From positions 32,001 to 96,000 of IMG/VR virus record IMGVR_UViG_3300008952_000012: DNA of 64,000 bases; one strand, 5' to 3'. The position numbers were made by a program, and so were the translations under genes. Below are positions 1 through 61,010 of this stretch, piece by piece. The notes under the pieces are model-generated. The model had not been told where the DNA came from and did no database searches. It was given only the letters and a program-made list of their open reading frames with translations. Source of the DNA: a virus. Position 1 is the first letter of the stretch. Every line of letters begins with the position of its first letter.

Positions 1-773
1 AGATCTTTCAGGTCGGGACATCTAAGGTGCCAAAGGATGTGAATTTCACGTTTGAGGCCATGGCCACACCACCCTGGTTCGCAGATATTTATCACGCCGC
101 TAATATCGGCGCAGAATATTACCAGCCTATGATGGGGTGCCAGTCCGTGGTGGATGGCTCTCTTATAGATTTAGCGGACGGCGAAGAGTGGAAAAAGGGC
201 CATACGCTTGAAGAGGTCGTTGAGTCGGAGGGGGAGGGGGAGCAGACGATTAAGCACGAGACGATCATACTCCCTATGCCAACAACTGATGGTAAGGGAA
301 CCCGTGAGGTCCTCATACCTAAATCATTGATGGACCCGGTTATTACCACATCAGCCGCCGCAGAGGCGCTAGCGGAGCTATGGCTTGGGTTAAAAGAGAT
401 TGGCGCTAATACTAATTTGTTTATAGACGCCTACAATGATAGAGCATACGCAACAATGATTGATATATTAGGCAACTTGAATAAGGACATTTTATTGAAG
501 GTGCAGGATATGAACTCACCCAATATAACTTTGGGTGACACACCATTTGAGGGGTTCCATACATGGGCCGTTGGGAACCTGAAAGGCCTTTTAGATGGGG
601 AGGGGACGCCTATATCGGGCGCTGATGAGCGCTTGATTAAAGCGGACCCAAGAACCAAGCCCAGAACGGTCGATGCTTCTGTTGACACGCGGGCAGACAA
701 ATACGCAGCCGCCGCCTCATATTCTAGAGAATTACAGGCAGGGAAGCGTGGATATTCACCGGAGACTGCATAA
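1..773 (+). CDS. Hypothetical virion-module protein, 5'-truncated at the window edge
   Basis: The frame of the 27..773 ORF stays open back to base 3 (IFQVGTSK...), so the gene probably begins upstream. Its stop overlaps the next ATG (taatg). No recognisable motif. Confidence 0.6.
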   Translation, partial: IFQVGTSKVPKDVNFTFEAMATPPWFADIYHAANIGAEYYQPMMGCQSVVDGSLIDLADGEEWKKGHTLEEVVESEGEGEQTIKHETIILPMPTTDGKGTREVLIPKSLMDPVITTSAAAEALAELWLGLKEIGANTNLFIDAYNDRAYATMIDILGNLNKDILLKVQDMNSPNITLGDTPFEGFHTWAVGNLKGLLDGEGTPISGADERLIKADPRTKPRTVDASVDTRADKYAAAASYSRELQAGKRGYSPETA

Positions 774-976
774 TGAGTGATATTACCAGCGATACAGGCC
801 CCTTCGAAAAGGAGCTAATTGGTGATAAAGTTCCGGAGTCTTCATTAGACATACAAGATGACTTGGGTAATGATGCCGAGATTGGAGAGGTGACATTTGG
901 GAGAGGAGCTACTAAGAAGGTACTTCTCTGCACACAGGGTGTCACCTTGAAGAAACTAGTTGATATGTCCAAGTAG
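773..976 (+). CDS. Small acidic hypothetical protein
   Basis: 67 aa ORF translationally coupled to the upstream ORF (TAATG overlap). Confidence 0.6.
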   Translation: MSDITSDTGPFEKELIGDKVPESSLDIQDDLGNDAEIGEVTFGRGATKKVLLCTQGVTLKKLVDMSK

Positions 977-1062
977 GTAGTTCGTAATTGCTTTACTATG
1001 TTGCATAATAATCATGACGCTTTTAGGCTCTGCCGTGCCGAATTAACTGGAGGAAACCAACC

Positions 1063-1596
1063 ATGGAACAATTAAGTAAGTTGGCTGCCAAACAAAGGTT
1101 GGTTGCCGTTCTGGAACGGGAGTTCAGTGAAACTCCCGATTTTGATAAAGAAGCAAAAGCAAAAGCCTTTTTCGAGAATGTCGGGAAAGCGCTGTCTGGC
1201 TGGGGAAAGAAAGCCAAGGAAACCGCTAAAGGCGCTGTTGAGGGCGTCAAAAAGGAGGTTTCTGTGATGCGAGGCAAGCCCCAGGAGAAGCTCAAAGAAG
1301 AGGCGAAGCAAGGGCGGCTACTAAAAGTGCTTAAATCCAAGCCAAAGGCGCAGTCAAAGAAGCAAGCGAAAAAAATCCTCAGTCAGGACTCAGCCAAAAC
1401 TCTCGCTGACCGGAGCAAAGCTCTCGACAAGGCCGAAAAGGGCCCTTTGACCAAAAAACAAAAGCGTAAGCTGATGGTCATGGACAAACAAACTAGTCAC
1501 TCTAGAAAGAGGGCCGTCGCTGTAGGTGGTGGTGGCTTATTAGGTTTAGGAACTTTGGGACTGATGAGCAGTTCCGACAAAACAGAGCGGGCGTAG
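1063..1596 (+). CDS. Basic K-x-A-motif protein with a C-terminal Gly-rich hydrophobic segment (putative virion internal/ejection protein)
   Basis: Strong RBS (GGAGG) before the ATG. SKLAA and FDKEA motifs are followed by a Lys-rich amphipathic region. C-terminus is AVAVGGGGLLGLGTLGLM. Confidence 0.7.
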   Translation: MEQLSKLAAKQRLVAVLEREFSETPDFDKEAKAKAFFENVGKALSGWGKKAKETAKGAVEGVKKEVSVMRGKPQEKLKEEAKQGRLLKVLKSKPKAQSKKQAKKILSQDSAKTLADRSKALDKAEKGPLTKKQKRKLMVMDKQTSHSRKRAVAVGGGGLLGLGTLGLMSSSDKTERA

Positions 1597-1616
1597 CTCG
1601 TATTTATTAGGAGGTA

Positions 1617-2519
1617 ATGAAGATGCTTTCAGCAGATAGACGAGCTACGTTGGAAAACCGGCTTGCAAACACAGTGTATGAAGAACCACAGCCCATGTAT
1701 AAACAGGCGACCATTGAGAAGGTGGCTGAGTTTAGGGATTATTACGGGTGGATGTGGCCTATTGCTCTTGAGAAAGAGGCCGCTGCCGCTGGTAACGAAG
1801 AGCTTATGAAGATCGCTGAGATTGAGAAGCAGGCTATTAAGGCGTGGCTTCTTCGCCAGGGTCTTGGTTTAGCAGGCCGAGCGCGGCAGGTGGCGGGTGC
1901 TCTTAAGTCTACCGCTGGTCGTGGGTTAAGTCGTTTCGGGGTGGCCGGTGGCCGCGCTGATCTGGCTGGCCAGAGAGCGATCCGCGCTGGTCAGCAAACC
2001 AAAGCGTATGGTACTGCTCAACGCGCAACTGCTCAGGCAGCCAAGGATATTGGCCTCACCCCAGCGCTGGCGCGAGTTATTAGCGGCACGACCAAGGCGC
2101 AGACTAGAGCCGCTGCTGCAAAGGCCGGTACCTCGAAAGCTAAGCAAATCACTCAGGCCACCACTAGGGCCCGGGCTGACGCAAGCTTCAAGGGAAGCTT
2201 GGTTGACAAGGCCAGAGCCAAGGGCCTGATTCCCGGCGACAAGGGCGCGACCCGTGCTTTCACTAAGAATACCAAAGATAAGAAGCTCACAAGACAGCTT
2301 GTCAATGTTCAGGGCCAGAAGGCTAAGGGCAAAATGGTTCGAGACATCTACGGTCGAGCTACGGCACAGGCCGCTGAGCGGGGCGGTATTGCCGGAGTCA
2401 CCCAGAAGGGTCTTGAGGCAGCACTCGCTGCACCATCCACTGTCAGTAGGTGGGGCAAGGGTCTGAAGCGGGCATTTGGTAAAAGAGATTGGGCCGCTGA
2501 AGCTGCTCGTCTTGCGTAG
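1617..2519 (+). CDS. K-x-A-motif precursor-like protein with an Ala/Gly/Arg/Lys-rich mature region (putative virion internal protein)
   Basis: AGGAGG RBS; the ATG at 1623 has better spacing than 1617. Five motifs (YKQA, EKVA, EKEA, MKIA, EKQA) lie in the first 73 aa, after which the composition switches to strongly basic. Confidence 0.7.
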   Translation: MKMLSADRRATLENRLANTVYEEPQPMYKQATIEKVAEFRDYYGWMWPIALEKEAAAAGNEELMKIAEIEKQAIKAWLLRQGLGLAGRARQVAGALKSTAGRGLSRFGVAGGRADLAGQRAIRAGQQTKAYGTAQRATAQAAKDIGLTPALARVISGTTKAQTRAAAAKAGTSKAKQITQATTRARADASFKGSLVDKARAKGLIPGDKGATRAFTKNTKDKKLTRQLVNVQGQKAKGKMVRDIYGRATAQAAERGGIAGVTQKGLEAALAAPSTVSRWGKGLKRAFGKRDWAAEAARLA

Positions 2520-2542
2520 CATAACTTGAGAGTAAACTTGGT

Positions 2543-3442
2543 ATGGAGATGGCTTTGGAATCCAATCCTGTAGTGGATTTCCTGAAATTTGCTGAAAAGC
2601 GAACTCAGGTGCGCGCACACGTGCGACGCACAAAAGACAAAGTTGTACCAGTTACTCAACATGATCGGGAGCTATCCGAATCCGCAGAGGAGGATAAACA
2701 TGCCCCCGAAGGCTACGCACACCCGGAGCTACAGTTAGACGATAAGAAGGCCATAGAACTTGAGTTGTGGCGGAAGTGGAAAGAGGGGGGAGAGAATCCT
2801 AGAGACCTCGCCCCCCTTTTGCGAAGCTTCCGACCACTGCTCAGGTCCAAAGCCAACGTCTACAAAGGCAAGGTGAAGATGATTCCAGACTCTGCCATTG
2901 AGGCAGAGTTTCAACTTCGCTTTGTTGACGCCCTGCGCTCCTATGACCCGAAGAAGGGCTCACTAGGAACGTACGTCTATAGGTATTTGGATAAGTCGAA
3001 GCGCTTCATTGTCGAGAACCAAAACATCGGTCGCATACCCGAAAACCGTGTCTACAAGATTCGGCAGTACACCTCCGCTAGGGATGAGCTATCGGAAGAT
3101 TTTGGGAGGGTGCCCTCTGTTGAAGAGGTTGCCCAAAGACTCGGATGGAGGTTGGCGGAAGCAAAGCGTATGGATTCTGAACTTAGGAATGATCTGCTAA
3201 CGCAGGGGTTCGAAGAAGATCCATACGCCATTACTCCGTCAAAATCAGAAGAGGTGCTTCGCCTTTTCAAGTATGAGCTTACGGGCAACGAGCGTGCGGT
3301 GTACGAACACCTCACCGGTTATGGAAAACCAAAGATTTCGTCAACCAGCGAAATAGCTAAGCGCTTGAAGATGCCAGACTATCAGGTCAGTCGCCTCAAG
3401 AATGCTATTCAAAAAAAGTTAAAGAGGTATCTACATGGCTGA
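2543..3442 (+). CDS. Phage RNA polymerase sigma factor, sigma-70 family (FliA/WhiG-like)
   Basis: Region 2-like YDPKKGSLGTYV, RIP motif, region 3-like FGRVPSVEEVAQRLG, and region 4 HTH-like LTGNERAVY...STSEIAKRLKMPDYQVSRLKNAIQKKLK. Confidence 0.85.
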   Translation: MEMALESNPVVDFLKFAEKRTQVRAHVRRTKDKVVPVTQHDRELSESAEEDKHAPEGYAHPELQLDDKKAIELELWRKWKEGGENPRDLAPLLRSFRPLLRSKANVYKGKVKMIPDSAIEAEFQLRFVDALRSYDPKKGSLGTYVYRYLDKSKRFIVENQNIGRIPENRVYKIRQYTSARDELSEDFGRVPSVEEVAQRLGWRLAEAKRMDSELRNDLLTQGFEEDPYAITPSKSEEVLRLFKYELTGNERAVYEHLTGYGKPKISSTSEIAKRLKMPDYQVSRLKNAIQKKLKRYLHG

Positions 3443-4181
3443 TAAGAACAAGACCGCGAATATCGCCAAGGTCCATTTCCTTATGAAGGAAAAGGGTATG
3501 AGCGCTACAGAAGCAATCAAACAAGCGTACCCAAGCTGGCCCGAAGAAAAGGTCAAGGCTTTAGCAGCCAAGCTTGATGCCATGAAGGGCGCGGGCAAGG
3601 CGATGGCCTCCGGCGGACCAATGGCAGCCAAGAAAGAAGAGCCACAGGAAGAGGAAGCTGAAAAAGAAGCGTCTGTGCTCGTGGCTGGCTTGCGGCAGGG
3701 CTCTGGCGCTCTTTACGGAAGCTTCGTTAAAAAGCAGGCTGCCCGAGAGAAGCTAGCGGCAGTCGTTTCTAACAACTGGCTGTCGAACAAGTACCTCGGA
3801 CCAGCCCTGGCGCTTAGTGATAATGACCTCTACAAAAACTACATGACTCGGTCACCGTACGTGAACACCGGCCTGGACACGCGCTTTTATAAAGAGAAGC
3901 AGGCGATGCTCAATCCGCTCGCCGCTGCCAAGGCGACTAGATGGCTGAAGACACTTTTTAGTGAAGGGTCGAAAGCCGTGAGCAAGGGTGCAAGGCATGT
4001 CGCTGAGAAAACGAGCAAGACGGTTGCCAAGCACATGCCCAGAACGAGCGCGTCCGTTAGGTCGAAGTTTCAGGATCTTGTTAAGAACAATCCCGAGGCC
4101 TGGGCGAACATCAAGAAGTACTACAAGCCTGTTCTTGGCGGCGCTGCTGGCACTATAGCCATCGGCAAGTTGGTGGATTAA
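3435..4181 (+). CDS. K-x-A-motif protein (putative virion internal protein)
   Basis: Overlaps the sigma stop codon. Motifs NKTA, IKQA, EKEAS, KKQAA, EKLAA and EKQAM are followed by a basic amphipathic segment and a GGAAGTIAIG C-terminus. Confidence 0.7.
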   Translation: MADKNKTANIAKVHFLMKEKGMSATEAIKQAYPSWPEEKVKALAAKLDAMKGAGKAMASGGPMAAKKEEPQEEEAEKEASVLVAGLRQGSGALYGSFVKKQAAREKLAAVVSNNWLSNKYLGPALALSDNDLYKNYMTRSPYVNTGLDTRFYKEKQAMLNPLAAAKATRWLKTLFSEGSKAVSKGARHVAEKTSKTVAKHMPRTSASVRSKFQDLVKNNPEAWANIKKYYKPVLGGAAGTIAIGKLVD

Positions 4182-4183
4182 AA

Positions 4184-4441
4184 ATGGCCACGCTGCATGG
4201 ATTATTACTTAGAAATACGAATAAGGATGAGTTTTTAGAAGATTTAAAAACTCAGGTTGTCCGGTTTCTTCGTTCTGAAAAGATAAGACTCAAAACTGAG
4301 AGAGCCTTTCTAACATCTGTGCAGGCGGGTCTTACGGAAGCCGACATTAAGTACAAGAGGTTGGCAGAGGTAGAGACCTATGCTGACGTTTCTAAGCTCT
4401 TAGGGATTAGCCCATCAAAGGACACAGGCAGTGAAGGTTAA
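4184..4441 (+). CDS. Small hypothetical protein
   Basis: 85 aa ORF tightly packed between its neighbours in the same operon. Confidence 0.6.
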   Translation: MATLHGLLLRNTNKDEFLEDLKTQVVRFLRSEKIRLKTERAFLTSVQAGLTEADIKYKRLAEVETYADVSKLLGISPSKDTGSEG

Positions 4442-5678
4442 ACTAGGGACAAACGCGGTTCTTCCGTTCTTCGATTCTACAGCAGTGGTTGGCGTTGCCA
4501 GCTTCACTGTTCAGGTCGATGACCCTAGTGGTGCAACCATTGCCACAGTGGACATGGTGGCGGTTACAGATGTACCCAACCTTCACCTAAGCGAGCCGGT
4601 TCTATTCGCTACCCCAGGTCAGCATACTGCAACGTATACTTACGACGGTGATGTCGTTAAGCAGGCATTCATTGAGGCCGGTGCCGCACCGATAAGCGAC
4701 TACCCAAGAGCCGTTGCTTCCCCACTGGTGCTGGACCAGCGAGTTGCTGGTGGCCCCGCCGAAACAATCACCGTGCAGGTCATTGATCAGTCGGGGGAAA
4801 CCGTCTTTGGGCCAGTGATTGCTCCATATGTTGCCGGTTCTTCTGGTTACGTATCTTCATATACGTTTCTTAATGAGGAGCAGTACTTTGTTGTCTGGCT
4901 AACGGGCGCTCCGGCTGTCCCCTTTAACATGGAGCCAGCCATTGTCTTGGCCCCGCTGGGGGCGGAGACGTGTAGGTTTACTGTTGCCACCCTGGAAGGG
5001 AACAACGGTAATCCGCACACGAGTACAACCGTTTTAGCGAGTCTCCCAAACGGCACACCTGTAGCTCAAGGCCTTACCGACATAGAGGGCGAGGTTGTGA
5101 TCAACCTAGATCCGACAAGCTATGTTTTGTCTTTAGCGAAAGACGGAGTGGTCTTTTCCAGAAATAACTTCACCATTGACGTTATCAACACCAGGGAGAT
5201 CTCTAACGACCCGCTATTGTACTCACCAGAGGCAACCGAGATTCAGGCCTTCCAGATTGTTACAGGCTCTTTTACTCCGACGTTCACTGCCCCCATATCC
5301 CCAGCGCCAATGTGCCAGCTATTCGCTGATATTTACCGCATGAGTGGGAAGCCTTTATCACACGCTAATGTGCAAGTGCGGCTTTTGCATACGCCCCAGT
5401 TGTTTTCCGGGGTAGCCGTGTTTGATACACAGGCTACGCATAAAACAGACGCCAACGGGCATGTGGAGTTTATGCTTGTTCAGGGGGTTAAAATAGAGGT
5501 AATAATTGCTCCGCTCTCGCTGAGACGCATTGTTACCGTGCCCTCTGGGGACGACGCGGTTGATCCAAATTCAGGACAGTTTATACCTGTCAATCTACTA
5601 GATCTTATGGCCAGCGCTGACGATGTATTCAACATCATTAAGGCCGAGGCCCCAGCCGCTCCGAGGAGGACTCTGTAG
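4431..5678 (+). CDS. Beta-rich structural protein with Cna-B/carboxypeptidase-regulatory-like (transthyretin-fold) domains
   Basis: GTG start. Two T-D-x-x-G-x-V motifs (GLTDIEGEVVI, KTDANGHVEF). Paralogous to 8201..9163. Confidence 0.55.
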   Translation: MKVKLGTNAVLPFFDSTAVVGVASFTVQVDDPSGATIATVDMVAVTDVPNLHLSEPVLFATPGQHTATYTYDGDVVKQAFIEAGAAPISDYPRAVASPLVLDQRVAGGPAETITVQVIDQSGETVFGPVIAPYVAGSSGYVSSYTFLNEEQYFVVWLTGAPAVPFNMEPAIVLAPLGAETCRFTVATLEGNNGNPHTSTTVLASLPNGTPVAQGLTDIEGEVVINLDPTSYVLSLAKDGVVFSRNNFTIDVINTREISNDPLLYSPEATEIQAFQIVTGSFTPTFTAPISPAPMCQLFADIYRMSGKPLSHANVQVRLLHTPQLFSGVAVFDTQATHKTDANGHVEFMLVQGVKIEVIIAPLSLRRIVTVPSGDDAVDPNSGQFIPVNLLDLMASADDVFNIIKAEAPAAPRRTL

Positions 5679-7360
5679 TGAGTTTTGACCGAAAAGAAGC
5701 GCTGGATTTCATGCGGAGGTTTACAAAAGAAGCCTCCGCATCAAGCGTATCCGGACGGCCCGGGCAGGGCCTTGATATTATGGGGATGGGCATGGCCCCG
5801 TGGCCCATTAAGCAGCAGCCAGTCACAGGTGCGACGACACAGAGCTTACTGAGCAAGCAGCTTGTTAACTACGCGGCGAAGTCTCAACAAAAGAAGATGA
5901 CGGGAAGTATCAACGCGTCTGGCAACCGGCAGATGGCCAAAAAAACCGGCAAGGGCGAGCTTCTCGGAAAGACCGACACCATTCTCTCCGATCCGAACGA
6001 AGCAAAGACTGCTGCGGTCAAGAAGAGAGAGCGCCCGCGAGAAGTAAAGAATCTTCTGTCAAGACTTACTGGTGGGGACATAGCTATTGCTGGTGGGATC
6101 TCCGGAGCCGGTACGGGGCTCGCTACATATGACCAGCTAGGGAAATTCAACGAACTCCTGAAGGGGCACGAAAAAGCCCTGAAGTCCAAGGCCCGAAGCC
6201 TAGAAGGCACGGGGAAGCTAAAGGCCGAGACGCTTGAGAAGCTATACAAGGAAAAGGCGGAGAAGCTCCCGAGGCTGCTTCGCTGGTATGCGAAACGAAA
6301 AGGCATGCCGGACACAATCGACCTAAAGAAACATCTACCGGAGATAGAGAAGCAGATCCCACGGCTAACTATGTCAAGGAAGGCCGTAACCCGGACAGCC
6401 ATGAAATCGGGGGCCAAGGTTGGTACCGGCGCTGTTCTGTCACTCCTTCTAGCCCGAGCTTTGTCCAGGAAAGCAGAGAAGAGCAGAAAACTGACAAACA
6501 TCACCAACGTCCTCGATGGCGGCACTGTGAAGCTGTCCTCTGCAGAATATCTTGAGAAGGAAGCCCGTTTCGCTGCCGCAGCACGCATGTGGGGGTGGGG
6601 CAAGAACCTTCTCCGAAATCTTGCCCCTAGGGTTGCTGCACCAGAGGCCGCGTTACCACATGCCGGAAAAGTATTTCAAAGCGCTGGGGCGGGAACCTCT
6701 GAGGCGGTCAATGCCTCTACGAGATTAAGAAACGCGCTTAGTGCTGCCAAAGGAAAGTTTTGGGCGAAGGGAACCGGAAGGAAAAACGTATACCGCAAGC
6801 TAGATGATGCCGGTAAACCGCTTCTGGACGACGCCGGAAAAGAAGTGCAGTTCCTTTCAAGCAAGGGGATGTTTAGGGCACCCAAAGACTGGCAGAAGGT
6901 AAAGAGATGGGACCAGACCGGTGGGTGGATTCAGCAGGGCGTGAAGGGTCTCGCTAGACATGGATCACAGGGTGCCGTAGGCGGATACGGTTTGTCGTGG
7001 GCGTTAAACCAAGACGCTAAGTGGAATGACCAGAAGCGCATCGATATGGCCTTAGGTGGCGCTCTCCTCTACCCATCCATGAAGTTTTCAAACATGCCTG
7101 CGTCGCTAGCAGCGGCTGGGGCGCAATGGGCTGCCCCAAACACTCTTGGAGGAGTTATCCCCGGAGCGTTTACGTCGGCCAAGCGACTTTGGGACACTAA
7201 GGGCGGCGATGGTACTCGCTTTTCAAAGATGCAGAATCTTAGCACTTCGTTAGCGGCACCACAGTTGGCGGCCAGAAAAGCTACTGAAACCAAGGCTAAG
7301 AGGCTGAACGCCAACGCACGCAAAATTCAACGAGAGCTTGCCGAGGCAAAAACCACATAG
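5678..7360 (+). CDS. Large basic K-x-A-motif polyprotein-like virion protein with several Gly/Ala-rich hydrophobic segments
   Basis: GGAGG RBS and GTG start. Motifs RKEA, TKEAS, AKTAA and internal YLEKEA (6554-6565). Hydrophobic segments include GGDIAIAGGISGAGTGLA, GTGAVLSLLLA, GAVGGYGLSWAL and ASLAAAGAQWAA. Confidence 0.7.
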   Translation: MSFDRKEALDFMRRFTKEASASSVSGRPGQGLDIMGMGMAPWPIKQQPVTGATTQSLLSKQLVNYAAKSQQKKMTGSINASGNRQMAKKTGKGELLGKTDTILSDPNEAKTAAVKKRERPREVKNLLSRLTGGDIAIAGGISGAGTGLATYDQLGKFNELLKGHEKALKSKARSLEGTGKLKAETLEKLYKEKAEKLPRLLRWYAKRKGMPDTIDLKKHLPEIEKQIPRLTMSRKAVTRTAMKSGAKVGTGAVLSLLLARALSRKAEKSRKLTNITNVLDGGTVKLSSAEYLEKEARFAAAARMWGWGKNLLRNLAPRVAAPEAALPHAGKVFQSAGAGTSEAVNASTRLRNALSAAKGKFWAKGTGRKNVYRKLDDAGKPLLDDAGKEVQFLSSKGMFRAPKDWQKVKRWDQTGGWIQQGVKGLARHGSQGAVGGYGLSWALNQDAKWNDQKRIDMALGGALLYPSMKFSNMPASLAAAGAQWAAPNTLGGVIPGAFTSAKRLWDTKGGDGTRFSKMQNLSTSLAAPQLAARKATETKAKRLNANARKIQRELAEAKTT

Positions 7361-7380
7361 GCTCTATAAGGAAGTTAGCT

Positions 7381-8187
7381 ATGGAATATTACGTATCAAA
7401 TGAAAAACGGGAGCAGCTAAGAACTGCTTTTCATAAAGTAGCCATGGCTAAGTCTCCCAGCCTTGAGAGCAAGGTTCTAGAGACAACTACTAAGCTTGCG
7501 TTTGTTCGTGAGCTTGCGGAAATTGACCCGGGCTTGGATTTCGAAAAGACCGCTGGTTTCTGGGACTTCGTAAAGAAGTGGGGTCCGGATATCGCACTTA
7601 CCGCACTTATGTTTGTGCCTGGGATTAACGTTGGCGCAGGTGCCATGCTTGCTGCCCGAGGAGCGCTCGCCGTAGGCAGGGCAGGGCTGGCCGCTCGCAA
7701 AGTGTATCAGGCAGGAAGGGCGGTTAAGGGCCTAAGGAGCCTAAAAACTATGGGCTCGGCCCTCAGGGGACCGAAAGCGGTAGCGAGTTCTTTCAGAAAG
7801 GCGCAAGGGCTTAAGCCAGGAACGTTCCTAAGAGGCGCAAACAATACTCAGAGAGCCGCGTGGAAATCGCAAGCTCAGGGTGGTAGAGGCATGCTGTCGA
7901 AGGCTTGGCACGGCACTGGTAAGGGTTCGTGGCGCGGCGGCGGCGGCCTCAAGAGCGTTGTTGGTAACACAGACAAGGCTACCGGCGCGTGGAAGTTTAG
8001 TCCTTTAAAAACTGGCTTCAATGCCCTCGCACTGGCCGAAGGTGTCCCAGCGGCCAGTCGAATGGTGAGAGGAAAGCCCAAAACTTGGGGCGATCATATG
8101 GGCGGCGGCGGAGCCGGACAGAGCCACTATCAAGGCGGCGGATTCAAGAAGATGCAGGCCTTGTCATCTGGCGCTGCAAACGCATAG
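7381..8187 (+). CDS. K-x-A-motif protein with a predicted membrane helix (putative ejection/membrane-active protein)
   Basis: FHKVA, TKLAF and DFEKTA are followed by GFWDFVKKWG, then the hydrophobic IALTALMFVPGINVGAGAMLAA and a Gly/Lys/Arg-rich remainder. Confidence 0.7.
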   Translation: MEYYVSNEKREQLRTAFHKVAMAKSPSLESKVLETTTKLAFVRELAEIDPGLDFEKTAGFWDFVKKWGPDIALTALMFVPGINVGAGAMLAARGALAVGRAGLAARKVYQAGRAVKGLRSLKTMGSALRGPKAVASSFRKAQGLKPGTFLRGANNTQRAAWKSQAQGGRGMLSKAWHGTGKGSWRGGGGLKSVVGNTDKATGAWKFSPLKTGFNALALAEGVPAASRMVRGKPKTWGDHMGGGGAGQSHYQGGGFKKMQALSSGAANA

Positions 8188-8200
8188 GAGAGAGCAATAA

Positions 8201-9163
8201 ATGGCTGACGTATACGTACATTGTAGAACCGCTCTACTTCCTGCCGGGGATGCCGTGCAGGACGTGTACGTGTCCATACATGCGGTTGGTGTCTACAATT
8301 CATTAGCAGACGGAACAACGGACGCTAACGGGTCCGTATTTCTAGGTAATAGAGCGCCCGGACTGTATGAAATACACCTCACACCAAACGGGCCAGCGAA
8401 GGTCCAGAACGGGAACTTGCAAACAGTAACCGTTGTGAATGAGGACGCCAACAACGACTTGGTAATTGATCCCAATATTTTTGATGTCCTTGTTGACGTA
8501 ACAACACTTCCCGCTGCATCTGACGACCACTTCTGCCGATGCTCAGGGACCTTCATAGACCCGTATGGGAAACCAATTAACGAGTTAACCATCCGGTTTT
8601 CAGAGAATACCGTATTTTTTCCTAACTTAATTTATTACCCGCAGGGCAGTGCAAACGCACTAATACCAACCTCAAAGGTTGTTCGAACCGATAGTAGTGG
8701 TTTTGCTTCCGTAGACTTACTCAGAAATTACGAGTATTTAGTGTTTATGGAAGGATACGAGAATCTGGCACGGAATATTTTAGTGCCAGATGCGTCCGCT
8801 GCCCCGCTTACTGATGTTATATTCGCCGCCGTAGATGGTATCGAATACACTTTGGGAAATGTCTTATTAGACGGTAATAGCCCATCTGTAACATTAAACG
8901 TGGGACAACAGGCCACTCTGCTTCTTGAAACAGTTTTTCGGAGTGGTCTTAGAATCTCAGGGGTGGTAGACACAGTATTAACAACTCCAGAGCAAAGCTT
9001 TATTAGCACTACATTGACAGGTAATACTCTTTTGATAGAGGCTCTTAGTCCCGGAAATGTAGAAATTGAGGTCACTCGTGTTAAACCAGCAACAGGACAT
9101 GGGATCACCATCGCTCCTGACCCTGGAGTCCGAGGTGCCCTCAGTGTCCTGGTCAACCCCTGA
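8201..9163 (+). CDS. Beta-rich structural protein with Cna-B-like domains and a C-terminal Ig-like domain
   Basis: GTTDANGSVFL and RTDSSGFASVDL motifs. The C-x-G-x3-D-x2-GKP segment matches 4431..5678. The C-terminus resembles Ig-like (Big) domains. Confidence 0.55.
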   Translation: MADVYVHCRTALLPAGDAVQDVYVSIHAVGVYNSLADGTTDANGSVFLGNRAPGLYEIHLTPNGPAKVQNGNLQTVTVVNEDANNDLVIDPNIFDVLVDVTTLPAASDDHFCRCSGTFIDPYGKPINELTIRFSENTVFFPNLIYYPQGSANALIPTSKVVRTDSSGFASVDLLRNYEYLVFMEGYENLARNILVPDASAAPLTDVIFAAVDGIEYTLGNVLLDGNSPSVTLNVGQQATLLLETVFRSGLRISGVVDTVLTTPEQSFISTTLTGNTLLIEALSPGNVEIEVTRVKPATGHGITIAPDPGVRGALSVLVNP

Positions 9164-9197
9164 TATCAGTCGTGATGCACAGCCACAGAGGCCGATT

Positions 9198-9470
9198 TTG
9201 TGGTTTACGCGGCTTTGGGCCGCTGTTGTCAGACGCGCCGCAGTCGATTGGGTCTTGTACAAAGACCACTCAACTTCCAAATTAAGGAAGGTAGGCGCGG
9301 ACGCCGAATATTGGATTTTCTTAGATAAGGAGGAAAATAGGTTAAGTTCTTTTGTATCTGTATGCGATATTCTTGGTCTCGAACCCAGCTTAATGCGAGA
9401 AAAGGTAAGAAGTTTAAGCGAAGAGGATGCTAGGAGGCTAAGAGGAATGGAGTTTGGCGATGACTGGTAA
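9198..9470 (+). CDS. Small phage hypothetical protein (RLWAAVV..RA..DW / SF..VCDILGL type)
   Basis: In-frame TTG at 9198 lies 6 nt after GAGG. The 9066 start in the track overlaps the upstream gene. Confidence 0.55.
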   Translation: MWFTRLWAAVVRRAAVDWVLYKDHSTSKLRKVGADAEYWIFLDKEENRLSSFVSVCDILGLEPSLMREKVRSLSEEDARRLRGMEFGDDW

Positions 9471-12429
9471 ATACACAGCCGAAGAGTTCGAGAAGAGTGT
9501 TGAGAGTATCTCCTCCTCTCTACAGGGCGTTGTTAGGGGAACAACCCAGTCAGCAGACGACATAGTAGACAGCGTAAAAGACTTCATTTTCCGAACGCTT
9601 AATTCAGACATTGATTCTGTATACGCGCTTATATTCCTCCTTAGAAACAAGGAAGTAATTACCTGCACAGAGGCATTGGTTGATTCAGAGAAGGTTTTTG
9701 ACCTTTTGCCTTCCGCGCTATCAGAGGAAGCGAGTGCCGACCAAGACGCCATCAATAAAATAAACGACCTGATGGAGGAGATAGCTTTCGCCCCAGCGGG
9801 TATACGTGAAGAGCTTGTTGCCGAACTACAGAAGCAAACGGCGAAAATGGTTCAGGGAAATAAGACGTCTACGGGTAAGGCGCTTTTAGGAACGAGCAGA
9901 AGCGCTGCACAGGCCTCCATAAAGAGTATATGCCACGACCTGTCTATTATCGTTGAGTCAATCAAGATCAACGGGGATAACTTCTTGGAGGCTATCCGCT
10001 CCTACATGCTCGCTGATTTCGAGGACGTGTCGGCCAGCGTCCAAGCTAAAGATGCCCAAAAAGCCATCGAGGCGCACGCAGACGACGAAGATATTGATAC
10101 GCAACAACTACTTCTTGATGCTGCTGTCGCCACATCCCTGGTAACCCAGGCGTCCCAGGCAAAGCGGGACATAACGAAGCCTAAGTATGAGGGCGATGTT
10201 GTAACCCTTCCGGGTGCACAGGCTGAGCTTCTTGGGGGCACTGACCCGTTCATATTGCAGGATAGCGATGAGCTTTTAGCGTCTATGGAGATTGACGGAA
10301 CGACCGTTGCTAAGGTTGGGGCGAATCCGTCCACATACCCAACCCACACACGAACATGGGACAACTCACTTAAGATTAGGACCGATAGCGGCCTTTTCTA
10401 CGACAACGGGACAAACGAACTAGACGATACGCTACTCAGCGATGAAACTACCAGCCTAGGGATTAGGCCCGCGCTTCTTAAGTACATTATCAAACCGGCT
10501 ACCTTGGAGGGTTCGGTTCTCTGGGTACCTCAGCCTGGGAGCGGCTCTCCGCCCACTATCATGGAGTTGAGGGACATACCCGGCCCGGACTACCCATATG
10601 GGGGTGGCGTTATCGAGTGGAAAGAAAAAGCAGATCCACTTGGGAACTGGGGTGCTTTTGGCCACATTGACTACGCTGCTGGGGTTCTTTCCCTAAATAA
10701 CGACTTTGGGGGAGACGGTGTCGGTGACCAAACGCTCACTGGGGCGATCTACATCACCTATAAGTATTATCCACTAGGGGACTTGGTGTTTAGGGCCGGG
10801 ACAGTCACCGAGTACGTTCCTCCGCCCTACCCAACACAAACGTACGCCAGAAAGGTAGAGCTACCTTTCGGAAACCTAGCGTACGCCGCCCACAACCGCC
10901 CTGTCACTCGGGTGCCGGATCTTGCGAATATTTCGGTCCCGGTGTCTACACCATTAGATTACGCCACCGCCCTACAGGACGGGAGTTGGCTTGACCCCCA
11001 ACACGAGGAAATGGGGGAGTATATGAAATGGGGCGCAACAGCGGATAGCTTCTCCACCAAACTACACAGAAACGGGTCCGCGCATAGGCTTTCTTATCCA
11101 TCTAGCGCAGCGCTACCACCGCTTGTGTGGAACACGGGGCCGCTAGGAGATACCTTCACAGCCCCTCCTGGGTCCATGAACATGATACTTGGGCTCTTTC
11201 ATGAGAAGACTGGGGACATCTTTGGCGGAGACACGCAGGCCAACACCCTCACGCCGCTTGGGCCTATTGATCTCGATGTCCCACAAGGACCGCTTCTAAT
11301 AGACGGAAACAGTGTTTTTGAGACAAGTGAGTCTGGGGTAGGCACGCATACGGACGCCCTGGACGGCTCTGGGAACCCAACGCTTAACGGGTATTTCCCG
11401 GTGAACACCGATGGCCTTGAGGTGGGCGACGATGTTTATGACTCGGTAACCCAATCTCATGCAAAGATTATTGCCATAGGGGTTGATGCCGAAAACACAA
11501 CCCAAACAGACGGGGTGATCATTTTTCCAGCGTTCCCAAGGCCCATAATCGCTTCCGGGACCGGGGGGATTGAGCCCACCAGCACACACAAGACCCAGTT
11601 TAGTAGGCACAGGGTACGGGTAAGTTCTCAGGCAAATGATGCCAGTAGCTCTATTTCAGTGACATTCTCAGCGCTCGGCTTCCCTCTCGGCCCTCCAGCC
11701 TTGGGAAGTTCTTTGGCGATCTCGCTCGGAAAGACCGTTGACCTTGATAATGTGGTCACAGATCCGGGGTACAACATAAAGCCTGGGGACGTTGTCCTGG
11801 AGAAGACTCTTGGAGCATCACGACCCATAGGGAGGGTGGAGACTGTAAACGGTAATAGGATTACCATCGTAATAGAGCCGAAGGGAATTTCACACGATTA
11901 CCCGTTCACGTCCCTAACCATTGTCGCGCTCGGGTGGCAAAAGCATGTGAAGCTAAGCGCCCAGCTTCGTAAGTCACTGGATTTGCTCAAAAAAATTTCG
12001 TCTAAAGACATAGTAGCACTAGCTAATACCGTAGCTTCATCCGGGTCCGGTCAGGGGCAGTTCACCCAACTTATGGGTGATGTTGTTGCTGCCGTTGCCG
12101 GTATTAGAAATGCTTACCTTCTGTATGACGCCCACACCGTAAACACGGTTAGTAAGCTCATGACTTTTTTGAAGCAGGAGAAAATGACCGTCCTGCACGA
12201 TCTTTTGATTACCGGACAGTTTTCCCAGGTGCCAGATGTGGACCCTGAGCAGGTTTCCTCCAAAGGGGACGTCGAAGGGATGCTCGCTATTGCTTCTGAC
12301 CTATATGGACAGCAGGCAGACTTTGTTGAGATTACTCGCGGATACGACCCGCTAGCCGACTTTACTAACAGAGGCAAGGAGCCAAATGTAGAGATTCAGG
12401 AGCTTCCAGATGTTGACATTATCCCGTAG
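9460..12429 (+). CDS. Large tail/baseplate-associated protein
   Basis: ATG 9460 has a GGAG RBS. Helical N- and C-termini flank a beta-rich core. GHIDYAAGVLSL resembles the G-x-I-D/N-Y-x-T-G motif of baseplate wedge proteins. Confidence 0.5.
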   Translation: MTGKYTAEEFEKSVESISSSLQGVVRGTTQSADDIVDSVKDFIFRTLNSDIDSVYALIFLLRNKEVITCTEALVDSEKVFDLLPSALSEEASADQDAINKINDLMEEIAFAPAGIREELVAELQKQTAKMVQGNKTSTGKALLGTSRSAAQASIKSICHDLSIIVESIKINGDNFLEAIRSYMLADFEDVSASVQAKDAQKAIEAHADDEDIDTQQLLLDAAVATSLVTQASQAKRDITKPKYEGDVVTLPGAQAELLGGTDPFILQDSDELLASMEIDGTTVAKVGANPSTYPTHTRTWDNSLKIRTDSGLFYDNGTNELDDTLLSDETTSLGIRPALLKYIIKPATLEGSVLWVPQPGSGSPPTIMELRDIPGPDYPYGGGVIEWKEKADPLGNWGAFGHIDYAAGVLSLNNDFGGDGVGDQTLTGAIYITYKYYPLGDLVFRAGTVTEYVPPPYPTQTYARKVELPFGNLAYAAHNRPVTRVPDLANISVPVSTPLDYATALQDGSWLDPQHEEMGEYMKWGATADSFSTKLHRNGSAHRLSYPSSAALPPLVWNTGPLGDTFTAPPGSMNMILGLFHEKTGDIFGGDTQANTLTPLGPIDLDVPQGPLLIDGNSVFETSESGVGTHTDALDGSGNPTLNGYFPVNTDGLEVGDDVYDSVTQSHAKIIAIGVDAENTTQTDGVIIFPAFPRPIIASGTGGIEPTSTHKTQFSRHRVRVSSQANDASSSISVTFSALGFPLGPPALGSSLAISLGKTVDLDNVVTDPGYNIKPGDVVLEKTLGASRPIGRVETVNGNRITIVIEPKGISHDYPFTSLTIVALGWQKHVKLSAQLRKSLDLLKKISSKDIVALANTVASSGSGQGQFTQLMGDVVAAVAGIRNAYLLYDAHTVNTVSKLMTFLKQEKMTVLHDLLITGQFSQVPDVDPEQVSSKGDVEGMLAIASDLYGQQADFVEITRGYDPLADFTNRGKEPNVEIQELPDVDIIP

Positions 12430-59920: not shown

Positions 59921-59952
59921 TGCTTATACCAAAAAGCTAATAGCCCTTGTGG
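59921..59952 (-). promoter_or_regulatory. Variant promoter motif CCACAA-N16-GGTATAAGCA at the head of the replication operon
   Basis: 8/10 match to GGCATAAGAA, about 47 nt upstream of ATG 59874, with a 4/6 match to the upstream box. Confidence 0.4.
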
Positions 59953-59960
59953 AGAACGGC

Positions 59961-61010
59961 ATGACAGAATTTTCAGGTACATACGACCATTACGACGATA
60001 ACGGCCTTTTGCTCCGAAAGGAGATGGGCGAGAAAGGGATTCCCCCTGTGATCAAGACCGCTGCTGATTTATCGAATCCAGCAACGAGGCATGAGGGGGA
60101 TTACGCGGTTGTCGCGGAGACACAGCGGGGGGTTGCTTACAAGTATCCAGTATCAGATGCTGGAAACGCTGTAGCGTCTGCCGTATATTTTTCTGAGTAC
60201 GGGCACAAACTCCCGCAAGAACTCAGAAAGACCGCAGCAGCAGCCATTAATGAAGCCCTCTCTGGTTTCGGGTTTACGCCCCCGGAGGACCTTACCAAGA
60301 CAGCCTCGATGGAACTTGGTTACAGCGGAGAGGGGGACAACATGTCTCTTGAAAAGCTGTTTGGTGTTGGCGGCGAAGACGACCCAATGGAGGTTGTGGA
60401 AGACGCTTTTTCCAAGCTGAGCCCCCGTGGCAAGAGCCGATTGGCCATGCAGGTCAAGGAGGCCGGTCTGCTTGAGAACGCCCCGGAAGAGCTTTCTGAC
60501 TACTTGTCGCGAGACATCCCCGGAGTTGGGCCTAACTTTGACACTGCTGTTGACACCCGGAAGCTTGTCCTCTTGGACGCAAACGCTTCGGAGGAGCTAG
60601 ACGAGCTTCAAAAGACATCGCAGTCTAAGTTTCTTAACCCAGAAGCCGTTGCGGAAGAACTTTCCCTGTTTGACCAAAAGCACCAGATCACGCATTTGTA
60701 TGATCGCGTAATAATCGATCCATGGAAAGCGGTTCACAGCGAGTCTGAAAAGACGGCTTCTTACGGGATTAAGATTGACGCTGACCAAATTAGTGATGCT
60801 GTTGACAGTTCTAAGGTTGTTGAAATCAACGGTAAAGAGTATACATCTGACGCAATTAATTCCTGGACCAACGATTCTGGGGCAGAAAAGCTGACCGACG
60901 CCTTTGGCGAAGAGTTCGCTAATGAATTCAAGGAAGACCCTGCGGTTGTTCTTGAGAGCCTCCCGGTTACTCACAGGAATGCAATAGCGCGGATGATTGA
61001 TGATAACTGA
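59961..61010 (+). CDS. Acidic K-T-A-repeat head-module protein (putative scaffold/core)
   Basis: ATG 59961 with a GGAG RBS. Motifs IKTAA, RKTAA, TKTAS, VKEAG and EKTAS; two genes upstream of the portal. Confidence 0.65.
   Translation: MTEFSGTYDHYDDNGLLLRKEMGEKGIPPVIKTAADLSNPATRHEGDYAVVAETQRGVAYKYPVSDAGNAVASAVYFSEYGHKLPQELRKTAAAAINEALSGFGFTPPEDLTKTASMELGYSGEGDNMSLEKLFGVGGEDDPMEVVEDAFSKLSPRGKSRLAMQVKEAGLLENAPEELSDYLSRDIPGVGPNFDTAVDTRKLVLLDANASEELDELQKTSQSKFLNPEAVAEELSLFDQKHQITHLYDRVIIDPWKAVHSESEKTASYGIKIDADQISDAVDSSKVVEINGKEYTSDAINSWTNDSGAEKLTDAFGEEFANEFKEDPAVVLESLPVTHRNAIARMIDDN

What the first reader, a model, noticed from the sequence alone, without database searches (positions are those of the whole stretch)
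1063..8187. Family of virion-module proteins sharing a repeated (E)K-x-A motif: a candidate new maturation-protease / capsid-targeting code
Seen in sequence: five otherwise dissimilar ORFs in the structural operon (1063, 1617, 3435, 5678, 7381), plus the head gene at 59961, carry clustered K-[T/V/E/Q/L/I]-A motifs, often as E-K-x-A. Examples: YKQA-TIEKVA...LEKEA...LMKIA-EIEKQA (five in 73 aa); FDKEA; EKEAS...KKQAAREKLAA...EKQAM; FTKEAS...YLEKEA; FHKVA...TKLA...DFEKTA; IKTAA...RKTAA...TKTAS...EKTAS. In several proteins the composition flips right after the last motif, from an acidic or neutral leader to a basic Ala/Gly-rich body. Established knowledge: T4 gp21 and phiKZ gp175 cleave internal head proteins at short motifs ending in Glu, removing propeptides. 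Inference: this phage uses a different, Lys-x-Ala-type signal to target and process a large set of packaged proteins.
Basis: partly seen in the sequence, partly recalled or inferred. Interest (0 to 1): 0.8.

Follow-up and report, generated by a model that had tools for sequence, protein, structure and literature searches.

The report
Lys-x-Ala leaders on basic phage proteins
Five unrelated, very basic proteins of an uncultured marine phage begin with short leaders packed with a conserved Lys-x-Ala signal that is purged from the rest of each protein. This is the pattern expected if the phage's own capsid protease cuts the leaders off, using a cutting rule not yet described for phage proteases, but no cut has been measured.

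Summary
Over whole proteins K-x-A is not above Lys/Ala content. This is because two opposite signals cancel:
- In residues 2-80 of the five ORFs, K-x-A is enriched: 18 observed vs 7.6 expected. It is the top outlier of all 400 X-x-Y pairs.
- In the basic bodies it is depleted: 10 vs 20.

Both effects recur in 27 orthologues and in 23 positional analogues that BLAST mostly no longer recognises. Controls (A-x-K, KA, K-x-x-A, replication genes) are flat.

One or two sites per protein are conserved in position, in the form hydrophobic-x-K-x-A. Leaders are acidic or neutral (pI 4.8-8.3) and bodies very basic (pI 10.2-11.8).

The genome encodes a head protease with the T4 gp21/herpes assemblin fold, outside the window. 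Its large family keeps K-x-A at both ends of the catalytic domain, in flexible loops.

Best reading (about 0.6): these are internal or ejected head proteins made with N-terminal propeptides that this protease cuts after Ala. Cleavage and packaging are both inferred.

This scan has already reported the same Lys-x-Ala code on this genome's head module and on several related genomes. New here are its extension to this basic-protein block and the depletion in the bodies.

The parts
1063..1596 (+). ORF 1063, 177 aa, 20% Lys. N-terminal tag M-x-x-L-S-K-L-A-A-K (K-x-A at nt 1078-1086), a second site FDKEA (nt 1147-1155), a basic body, and a C-terminal Gly-rich hydrophobic segment (residues 150-170).
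   Evidence: The tag at residues 6-8 has a K-x-A nearby in 5 of 5 orthologues. The same M-x-x-L-E-K-x-A-A-K start occurs on unrelated genome ORFs 20136 and 131438.
1617..2519 (+). ORF 1617, 300 aa. The true start is probably Met3 (nt 1623). Acidic leader to residue 73 (nt 1617-1835) with five K-x-A (nt 1701-1709, 1719-1727, 1773-1781, 1809-1817, 1827-1835). The Ala/Gly/Arg-rich body has net charge +35.
   Evidence: All five sites are kept in the 69%-identical orthologue in L022 and partly kept in L002. E-K-x-A occurs 3 times vs 0.26 expected.
2543..3442 (+). Sigma-70-type factor inside the block, not one of the five flagged ORFs. It carries an invariant F-L-K-F-A at residues 13-17 (K-x-A at nt 2585-2593), ahead of an N-terminal extension that Arash and D69 sigma lack.
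   Evidence: Pfam Sigma70_r3 and phrog_351. F13, L14, K15 and A17 are invariant in 6 orthologues of 68-79% identity. Arash gp10 and D69 gp11 align only from residue 72.
3435..4181 (+). ORF 3435, 248 aa. K-T-A at residues 6-8 (nt 3450-3458), then a conserved ~35-residue helical module, then AEKEA|S at residues 77-79 (nt 3663-3671). Basic body and a C-terminal hydrophobic tail.
   Evidence: Sites 6, 29 and 155 are each exact in 3 of 6 orthologues. E-K-x-A occurs 3 times vs 0.35 expected.
5678..7360 (+). ORF 5678, 560 aa. Short leader ending F-T-K-E-A|S at residues 15-20 (K-x-A at nt 5726-5734). The basic body (net +54) holds 4 K-x-A where 8.6 are expected.
   Evidence: The site at residue 17 is exact in 4 of 6 orthologues and nearby in 6 of 6. 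Positional analogues that BLAST no longer matches keep L-Q-K-L-A, M-T-K-L-A or L-L-K-Q-A at residues 20-22.
7381..8187 (+). ORF 7381, 268 aa. Leader to residue 58 (nt 7381-7554) with F-H-K-V-A (nt 7435-7443), T-K-L-A (nt 7492-7500) and F-E-K-T-A|G (nt 7546-7554). A hydrophobic segment follows at residues 70-93, then a Gly/Ala-rich basic body (pI 11.8).
   Evidence: Sites 19 and 56 are exact in 5 of 6 orthologues that are only 33-46% identical overall.
59949..61010 (+). Acidic 353-aa protein with five K-(T/E)-A-(A/S/G) sites. It is the 'head gene at 59961' of the finding and is probably a scaffold- or core-type substrate.
   Evidence: K-[TVEQLI]-A occurs 5 times vs 0.82 expected, P 0.002. Sites are listed.

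Best explanation
The five ORFs encode precursors of internal head proteins: basic, probably DNA-associated or ejected, and three of them with Gly-rich hydrophobic segments. Each has an N-terminal propeptide of about 20-80 residues carrying one to five copies of hydrophobic-x-Lys-x-Ala, usually followed by a small residue.

The proposed sequence of events:
1. The phage's own prohead protease recognises Lys at P3 and Ala at P1 and cuts after Ala. This protease has the T4 gp21/herpes assemblin fold and is encoded at genome 116294-117976, which is 20 kb beyond the window's end.
2. This removes and fragments the leaders once the proteins are inside the prohead.
3. The basic bodies remain. K-x-A has been purged from them, partly replaced by R-x-A, so they survive.
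4. The leader may also serve as the ticket into the prohead, as the T4 capsid-targeting sequence does.

Shown here: the motif is under position-specific selection, positive in leaders and negative in bodies. The protease exists and has this fold. Its family keeps K-x-A at both borders of its catalytic domain.

Inferred: cleavage itself, the scissile bond, and that these five proteins enter the head.
For: 1. Leader enrichment and body depletion appear in the window, in 27 orthologues and in 23 positional analogues from further metagenome contigs. In the analogues, 15 of 23 carry an N-terminal tag vs 3.6 expected, leaders hold 40 vs 25, and bodies 38 vs 65.
2. The signal is specific. K-x-A is the top X-x-Y outlier in leaders and among the most depleted in bodies, while A-x-K, KA, AK and K-x-x-A are flat and R-x-A is enriched in bodies.
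3. Sites are conserved in position despite 30-45% overall identity.
4. Genome-wide, 18 of 76 plus-strand (late) proteins carry hydrophobic-x-K-x-A in the first 35 residues vs 5.1 expected. On the minus strand it is 1 of 42 vs 2.1. Carriers include the protease and the scaffold-like proteins.
5. Bodies of nine other basic proteins in the genome are also depleted, 17 vs 27.6. Replication genes are not.
6. The protease matches phrog_18299 at E 2.5e-11. Its AlphaFold2 model has pLDDT 84.8. The best structural match is T4 gp21 (Foldseek E 3e-4; VIA Z 11.9), followed by VZV protease at Z 7.0.
7. In the protease family K29 and A31 are invariant. K228 is kept in 142 of 146 homologues and A230 in 126 of 142, followed by Ser, and conservation collapses right after. 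Both sites lie in low-confidence loops.
8. K-x-A has the same P3-x-P1 spacing as every known rule for this fold: T4 L/I-x-E, SPN3US and phiKZ A/S/G-x-E (PMC5694885, PMC10052503), and herpesvirus sites YLQA-T and VQA-S (PMC4498786).
9. Multi-copy motifs inside propeptides, and C-terminal autocleavage of the protease, are documented for SPN3US.
Against: - There are no mass-spectrometry or N-terminal data for this phage or any relative. The Arash virion study did not analyse cleavage.
- Whole-protein K-x-A frequency is not elevated.
- Many individual sites are not conserved. Several have a large or charged residue after Ala (K, E, I, M, N), unlike the S/A/G/T preference in the head-module proteins.
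- The block sits among genes whose Arash counterparts look like tail or baseplate structural proteins rather than head proteins.
- Arash and D69 have no counterparts of the five ORFs beside their sigma gene.
- K-x-G is depleted in leaders as well as in bodies, which the model does not predict.
- The 2089-aa RNA polymerase, thought to be packaged, shows no depletion: 16 vs 15.
Confidence: 0.6

Rival explanations
1. K-x-A is a docking or targeting motif that binds the scaffold, portal or protease and brings proteins into the prohead, but it is not itself cut. Any processing happens elsewhere or not at all.
For: Unrelated proteins share a whole N-terminal tag, M-x-x-L-E-K-x-A-A-K-(Q/R)-x-L, whose conservation runs past the Ala. 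Several sites have a bulky residue after Ala. The enrichment is N-terminal.
Against: A pure binding motif gives no clear reason for the strong purge of K-x-A from the bodies. It also does not explain near-invariant copies exactly at both borders of the protease's catalytic domain, in flexible loops with conservation collapsing after Ala-Ser. Nor does it explain 7-15 copies in scaffold-like proteins.
Confidence: 0.2
2. The motif is cut by a different enzyme than the gp21-fold protease. Candidates are a host protease, or the NlpC/P60-like peptidase module of the 1877-aa protein at genome 12449-18082.
For: No experiment links the motif to any particular enzyme.
Against: The motif travels with the gp21-fold protease across very distant phages: Arash gp222, and Bxz1 gp95 with K-T-A-G at its domain end. 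It is nearly invariant within that protease family itself. No hydrophobic signal-peptide core precedes the motif, which argues against signal peptidase.
Confidence: 0.1
3. The pattern is a by-product of helix-forming Glu/Lys/Ala-rich leader composition or of low-complexity bodies, with no role in assembly.
For: Whole-protein counts match composition. The proteins are Lys/Ala-rich, and many individual sites are not conserved.
Against: Local shuffles that keep regional composition still give z of +4 to +7 in leaders and -2.6 to -4.4 in bodies. Reversed or re-spaced patterns are flat. The pattern recurs in lineages diverged beyond BLAST recognition. It is absent from replication genes.
Confidence: 0.07

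Closest known systems
Phage T4 prohead protease gp21 with its substrates: internal proteins IPI-III and Alt carrying a capsid-targeting sequence, cut at (L/I)-x-Glu
   Same: The protease has the same fold. The substrates are small basic internal proteins with short N-terminal leaders ending in a P3-x-P1 site. A similar leader is shared by otherwise unrelated proteins.
   Different: The proposed P3/P1 is Lys/Ala rather than hydrophobic/Glu. There is no sequence-level membership: Pfam PF03420 finds nothing. The protease carries a 330-residue C-terminal extension and a Cys-rich insert. No homology to the T4 internal proteins was found.
phiKZ gp175 / SPN3US gp245 and their propeptide-bearing head and ejection proteins (A/S/G-x-Glu)
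   Same: The propeptides are long and hold several motif copies. The protease cuts itself at its C-terminus. Some substrates have a predicted transmembrane helix. A virion RNA polymerase is packaged (PMC5694885, PMC10052503).
   Different: Those enzymes cut after Glu.
Herpesvirus assemblin (pUL26): release and maturation sites, (V/L/I)-x-Ala|Ser
   Same: Ala sits at P1 and a small residue at P1'. The catalytic domain is N-terminal and is followed directly by a conserved cut site (K-V-A-S here at residues 228-231). [quoted passage not shown] Structural matches are VZV protease Z 7.0 and HCMV protease Z 5.1.
   Different: P3 is Lys rather than an aliphatic residue. The host is bacterial. The closest structure is T4 gp21, not assemblin. 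It is not shown that the C-terminal extension acts as a scaffold.

Membership tests
T4 gp21 / herpes assemblin-fold capsid maturation proteases (for the enzyme at L009:14294-15976) | Characteristic fold | tested here: met
   The AlphaFold2 model has pLDDT 84.8. Foldseek top three hits are 5jbl chains, E 3e-4, probability 1.0. VIA gives 5jbl Z 11.9 with 149 residues aligned at rmsd 2.8, and VZV protease Z 7.0.
T4 gp21 / herpes assemblin-fold capsid maturation proteases (for the enzyme at L009:14294-15976) | Conserved catalytic Ser and His | tested here: inconclusive
   H103 and S159 are invariant in 54 homologues and kept in 151 of the 150-homologue set. Their structural equivalence to the gp21 catalytic residues was not checked residue by residue.
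T4 gp21 / herpes assemblin-fold capsid maturation proteases (for the enzyme at L009:14294-15976) | Sequence membership of Pfam Peptidase_S77 (PF03420) | tested here: not met
   PF03420 finds no match in the whole genome at E <= 1. Pfam finds nothing on the protein. Only phrog_18299 'head maturation protease' matches, at E 2.5e-11.
T4 gp21 / herpes assemblin-fold capsid maturation proteases (for the enzyme at L009:14294-15976) | Cuts its substrates and itself at a short P3-x-P1 motif | not testable with these tools
   Only indirect evidence: K-x-A is nearly invariant at both borders of the catalytic domain, in flexible loops.
Protease-processed internal head proteins with N-terminal propeptide (T4 IP / SPN3US gp53-type), for the five ORFs | N-terminal leader ending in the protease motif, with the motif rare in the mature part | tested here: met
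   Leaders hold 18 vs 7.6 and bodies 10 vs 20.4. The same holds in orthologues and positional analogues.
Protease-processed internal head proteins with N-terminal propeptide (T4 IP / SPN3US gp53-type), for the five ORFs | Presence in the virion head and loss of the leader in mature particles | not testable with these tools
   The phage is uncultured. The cultured relatives Arash and D69 lack these ORFs beside their sigma gene.
Protease-processed internal head proteins with N-terminal propeptide (T4 IP / SPN3US gp53-type), for the five ORFs | Sequence homology to known internal or ejection proteins | tested here: not met
   Pfam and PHROGs give no hit. A search of 5.8 billion proteins with ORF 7381 gave three hits, one being the query itself. 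The Atlas search with ORF 5678 gave only scores of 0.81 or less.
Sec-type signal peptides cut by signal peptidase I (A-x-A) | Hydrophobic core of 10-15 residues directly before the small-x-small site | tested here: not met
   No hydrophobic 19-mer lies upstream of any leader motif. Hydrophobic segments lie downstream (ORF 7381 residues 70-93, ORF 1063 residues 150-170) or are absent.

The most novel reading that the evidence does not exclude
A very large, almost unstudied clade of gp21-fold phage proteases (more than 3,400 sequence clusters) cuts after Ala with Lys at P3, a herpesvirus-like rule. Its Lys-x-Ala tag acts both as entry ticket and as cut site for a whole packaged proteome. In this phage that proteome would include about fifteen basic proteins, a sigma factor, an SNF2 helicase and the RNA polymerase. 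If so, the injected protein set of thousands of uncultured phages could be read directly from sequence.
Probability: 0.4. Interest if true: 0.75.

Novelty: new variant of a known kind. Interest (0 to 1): 0.6.

Why it matters
Every studied phage protease of the gp21 fold cuts after glutamate. A Lys-x-Ala|small rule would be a new specificity and would link phage and herpesvirus maturation proteases more closely.

The leader-enriched, body-depleted pattern gives a sequence-only way to predict which proteins of uncultured large phages are packaged and processed. Here the predicted set includes a block of fast-evolving basic proteins and possibly a sigma factor. That bears on how these phages deliver their own transcription machinery.

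The cultured relative Arash carries the same motif in its protease, capsid and scaffold-like proteins, so the idea can be tested directly.

Tried and rejected
- **Whole-protein K-x-A enrichment:** not significant for any of the five ORFs. This led to the leader/body split.
- **Nucleotide search of the region against 50,697 phage records:** no match.
- **Pfam and PHROGs on the five ORFs and their neighbours:** only the sigma factor and weak Ig-like or carboxypeptidase-regulatory hits on ORFs 4431 and 8201.
- **PF03420 against the genome:** nothing.
- **PDB sequence search with the protease:** nothing meaningful.
- **A profile of sigma orthologues to reach more distant viral contigs:** returned the same six loci.
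- **Homologue search with ORF 7381:** three hits, one being the query itself.
- **Atlas search with ORF 5678:** only weak hits to viral hypothetical proteins.
- **Paralogy among the basic proteins:** none.
- **Per-residue conservation of motif Lys and Ala against other Lys and Ala in full-length alignments:** only marginal, P 0.06-0.08. The signal is carried by one or two sites per protein.
- **Arash supplement:** sequences only, no peptide-level data.
- **Phage G capsid paper (PMC7316594):** not held. The megaphage G and mycobacteriophage literature searched gave no cleavage-site data.
- **Promoter and terminator scan of nt 700-9600:** nothing above shuffles.
- **Signal-peptidase reading:** rejected, because no hydrophobic core precedes the motif.

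Full report
**Context.** The window is bases 32001-96000 of a 134.5-kb IMG/VR viral record, about 75% complete. Nucleotide search finds no close cultured relative. Nt 1063-8187 lies in a run of tightly packed plus-strand genes:
- ORF 1063 (177 aa)
- ORF 1617 (300 aa)
- a sigma-70-type factor at 2543-3442
- ORF 3435 (248 aa)
- ORF 4184 (85 aa)
- ORF 4431 (415 aa, weak Ig-like hit)
- ORF 5678 (560 aa)
- ORF 7381 (268 aa)
- ORF 8201 (320 aa)

Upstream and downstream genes have weak counterparts in the cultured Salmonella phage Arash that were found in virions: gp6, gp8 (virion cell-wall hydrolase), gp12 and gp13. Arash and Vibrio phage D69 have no counterpart of the five flagged ORFs beside their sigma gene. 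The five ORFs have no family hit and are not paralogues of each other.

**Observation.** All quoted motif instances are present. A plain test fails: over whole proteins, K-x-A matches Lys/Ala content in all five. Two opposite signals cancel.
- In residues 2-80 there are 18 K-x-A vs 7.6 expected (0 of 2000 shuffles reach it) and 11 hydrophobic-x-K-x-A vs 1.9.
- From residue 81 on there are 10 vs 20.4 (P 0.0045).
- Among all 400 X-x-Y pairs, K-x-A is the top outlier in leaders (z 4.8; z 6.7 with orthologues) and among the most depleted in bodies (z -4.8).
- Shuffling within 20- or 40-residue windows keeps the result. A-x-K, KA, AK and K-x-x-A are flat. R-x-A is enriched in bodies (z about +4). 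K-x-G is depleted throughout.
- The composition flip is confirmed: leader pI 4.8-8.3, body pI 10.2-11.8, body net charge +18 to +54.

**Relatives.** Seven syntenic viral contigs were found through the sigma gene. There the sigma factor is 68-79% identical, but the flagged ORFs are only 30-46% identical. Several sites still hold their position:
- ORF 7381, residues 19 and 56: 5 of 6 orthologues.
- ORF 5678, residue 17: 4 of 6 exact, 6 of 6 nearby.
- ORF 3435, residues 6, 29 and 155: 3 of 6 each.
- ORF 1063, residue 6: 5 of 5 nearby.

Many other instances are not conserved, and a per-residue conservation test is only marginal. So each protein has one or two core sites plus variable extra copies.

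Across the 27 orthologues, leaders hold 69 vs 38 and bodies 77 vs 112. Fifteen further metagenome loci contain positional analogues that BLAST mostly no longer recognises. Among 23 of them, 15 carry hydrophobic-x-K-x-A in the first 40 residues vs 3.6 expected. Their leaders hold 40 vs 25 and their bodies 38 vs 65.

**Genome-wide picture.**
- 18 of 76 plus-strand proteins carry hydrophobic-x-K-x-A within the first 35 residues vs 5.1 expected. On the minus strand (replication genes) it is 1 of 42 vs 2.1.
- Carriers include four of the five flagged ORFs, the sigma factor, an SNF2 helicase, the protease and scaffold-like acidic proteins.
- The strongest plain K-x-A excess lies outside the window: genome 104471-106453 has 15 vs 3.1, followed by 118075, 118930 and 113310. 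The context there is (hydrophobic/E)-x-K-(T/L/V/E)-A-(S/A/G/T).
- K-x-A sites in the five ORFs resemble that context more than sites in control proteins do (Mann-Whitney P 2e-4).
- Nine other basic Lys/Ala-rich proteins of the genome also have depleted bodies, 17 vs 27.6 (P 0.01). Replication proteins do not.
- Unrelated proteins (ORF 1063, genome ORFs 20136 and 131438) share the start M-x-x-L-E-K-x-A-A-K. This recalls the shared leaders of the T4 internal proteins and of SPN3US gp53/gp54.

**Protease.**
- Genome 116294-117976 (L009:14294-15976, 560 aa) matches phrog_18299 'head maturation protease' at E 2.5e-11. It lies upstream of K-x-A-rich acidic proteins and a likely capsid gene.
- Its N-terminal 270 residues find 3,419 representative clusters.
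- An AlphaFold2 model has pLDDT 84.8.
- The model matches T4 gp21 best (Foldseek E 3e-4; VIA Z 11.9). Next are VZV protease at Z 7.0 and HCMV protease at Z 5.1.
- H103 and S159 are invariant.
- K29 and A31 are also invariant. K228 and A230 are nearly invariant and are followed by Ser, after which conservation collapses. Both sites lie in low-confidence loops.
- A further K-E-A-S lies at residues 482-485, 76 residues before the C-terminus.
- The layout is catalytic domain, cut site, long extension, then a second site. This is the layout of herpesvirus pUL26, which is cut after Ala at YLQA-T and VQA-S (PMC4498786).

**Cultured relatives.**
- Arash gp222 is a homologue of the protease at 41% identity and keeps the motif at residues 30 and 218.
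- Arash gp220, gp223 and gp225 hold 10, 8 and 7 K-x-A vs about 2-3 expected.
- The Arash capsid protein has L-V-K-E-A-G at residue 27.
- A distant homologue in cluster C mycobacteriophages (Bxz1 gp95) has K-T-A-G at its domain end.

**Interpretation.** The data fit a protease site selected for in removable leaders and selected against in exposed, probably disordered, basic bodies. K-x-A has the same P3-x-P1 spacing as every known rule of this fold. T4, phiKZ, 201phi2-1 and SPN3US all cut after Glu (PMC5694885 and PMC10052503), and herpesviruses cut after Ala. Cleavage after Ala with Lys at P3 is therefore the most economical reading, but it is an inference. No cleavage data exist for any member: the Arash virion study lists proteins only.

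Whether the five proteins enter the head is also inferred. The basis is the shared tag, their basic composition, and the precedent of processed ejection proteins with transmembrane helices in SPN3US. Gene neighbourhood does not help, because the nearest Arash counterparts look like tail or baseplate proteins.

**Unexplained.**
- K-x-G is avoided in leaders as well as in bodies.
- Residues after Ala in several leader sites are not small.
- The large RNA polymerase shows no depletion. It may be protected by folding.

**Relation to earlier notes of this scan.** The same Lys-x-Ala head-protease reading was already reached for this genome's head module and for several related genomes. I re-derived the protease fold, the Arash link and the motif independently. 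New here are the extension to the basic-protein block beside the sigma gene, the depletion in the bodies, the replication in analogues beyond BLAST recognition, and the invariant sites flanking the protease domain.

**Verdict.** The feature is real. It is a new variant of a known kind: prohead-protease propeptide processing with a different, herpes-like specificity. Confidence is about 0.6 for cleavage by the phage protease and above 0.9 that the motif is under selection.

Noticed in passing
window 2579-2593 (sigma factor residues 13-17): The phage sigma factor carries an invariant F-L-K-F-A at its N-terminus, ahead of a ~70-residue extension that Arash and D69 sigma lack. By the same logic it may be a packaged, processed and injected sigma factor.
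   Followed up: partly
L009:14294-15976 (genome 116294-117976, 20 kb beyond the window's end): The head protease is laid out like herpesvirus pUL26: a gp21-fold domain, then K-V-A-S at residues 228-231, a 330-residue extension, and K-E-A-S at 482-485. It also has an invariant Cys cluster (C169, C172, C183) that looks like a small metal-binding insert.
   Followed up: partly
window 3468-3578 (ORF 3435 residues 12-48): A ~35-residue helical module, K-G-M-S-x-x-E-A-I-K-x-A-Y-P-x-W-x-(D/E)-E, is conserved in otherwise unalignable proteins of many related contigs (L002, L003, L024, L025, L029, L031). Its function is unknown.
   Followed up: no
window 1617-1625: Orthologues of ORF 1617 start at the equivalent of Met3 (M-L-S/T-A-E/D-R-R), so the true start is probably nt 1623.
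   Followed up: partly
bodies of the five ORFs and their orthologues (window 1063-8187; L002-L008): R-x-A is enriched (133 vs 98) while K-x-A is depleted, as if Arg replaces Lys to keep the charge without the site. K-x-G is depleted in bodies (57 vs 95) and also in leaders, which remains unexplained.
   Followed up: partly
L019:4905-9017 (Mycobacterium phage Bxz1 gp95): Cluster C mycobacteriophages (207 records) carry a distant homologue of this protease fused into a 1370-aa protein, with K-T-A-G at the end of the protease domain. This is another culturable system for testing the rule.
   Followed up: partly
L028, L029, L030, L032, L036 versus window 1063-8187: The basic proteins flanking the sigma gene diverge beyond BLAST recognition while neighbouring genes stay 35-70% identical. 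Gene number and length in these slots also vary between relatives.
   Followed up: partly
window 3-773 (end of the 1187-aa ORF at genome 29210-32773): This ORF is weakly similar to Arash gp8, the virion-associated cell-wall hydrolase (E 2e-4), and to D69 gp09. It is probably a virion lysin and ends just before the flagged block.
   Followed up: partly
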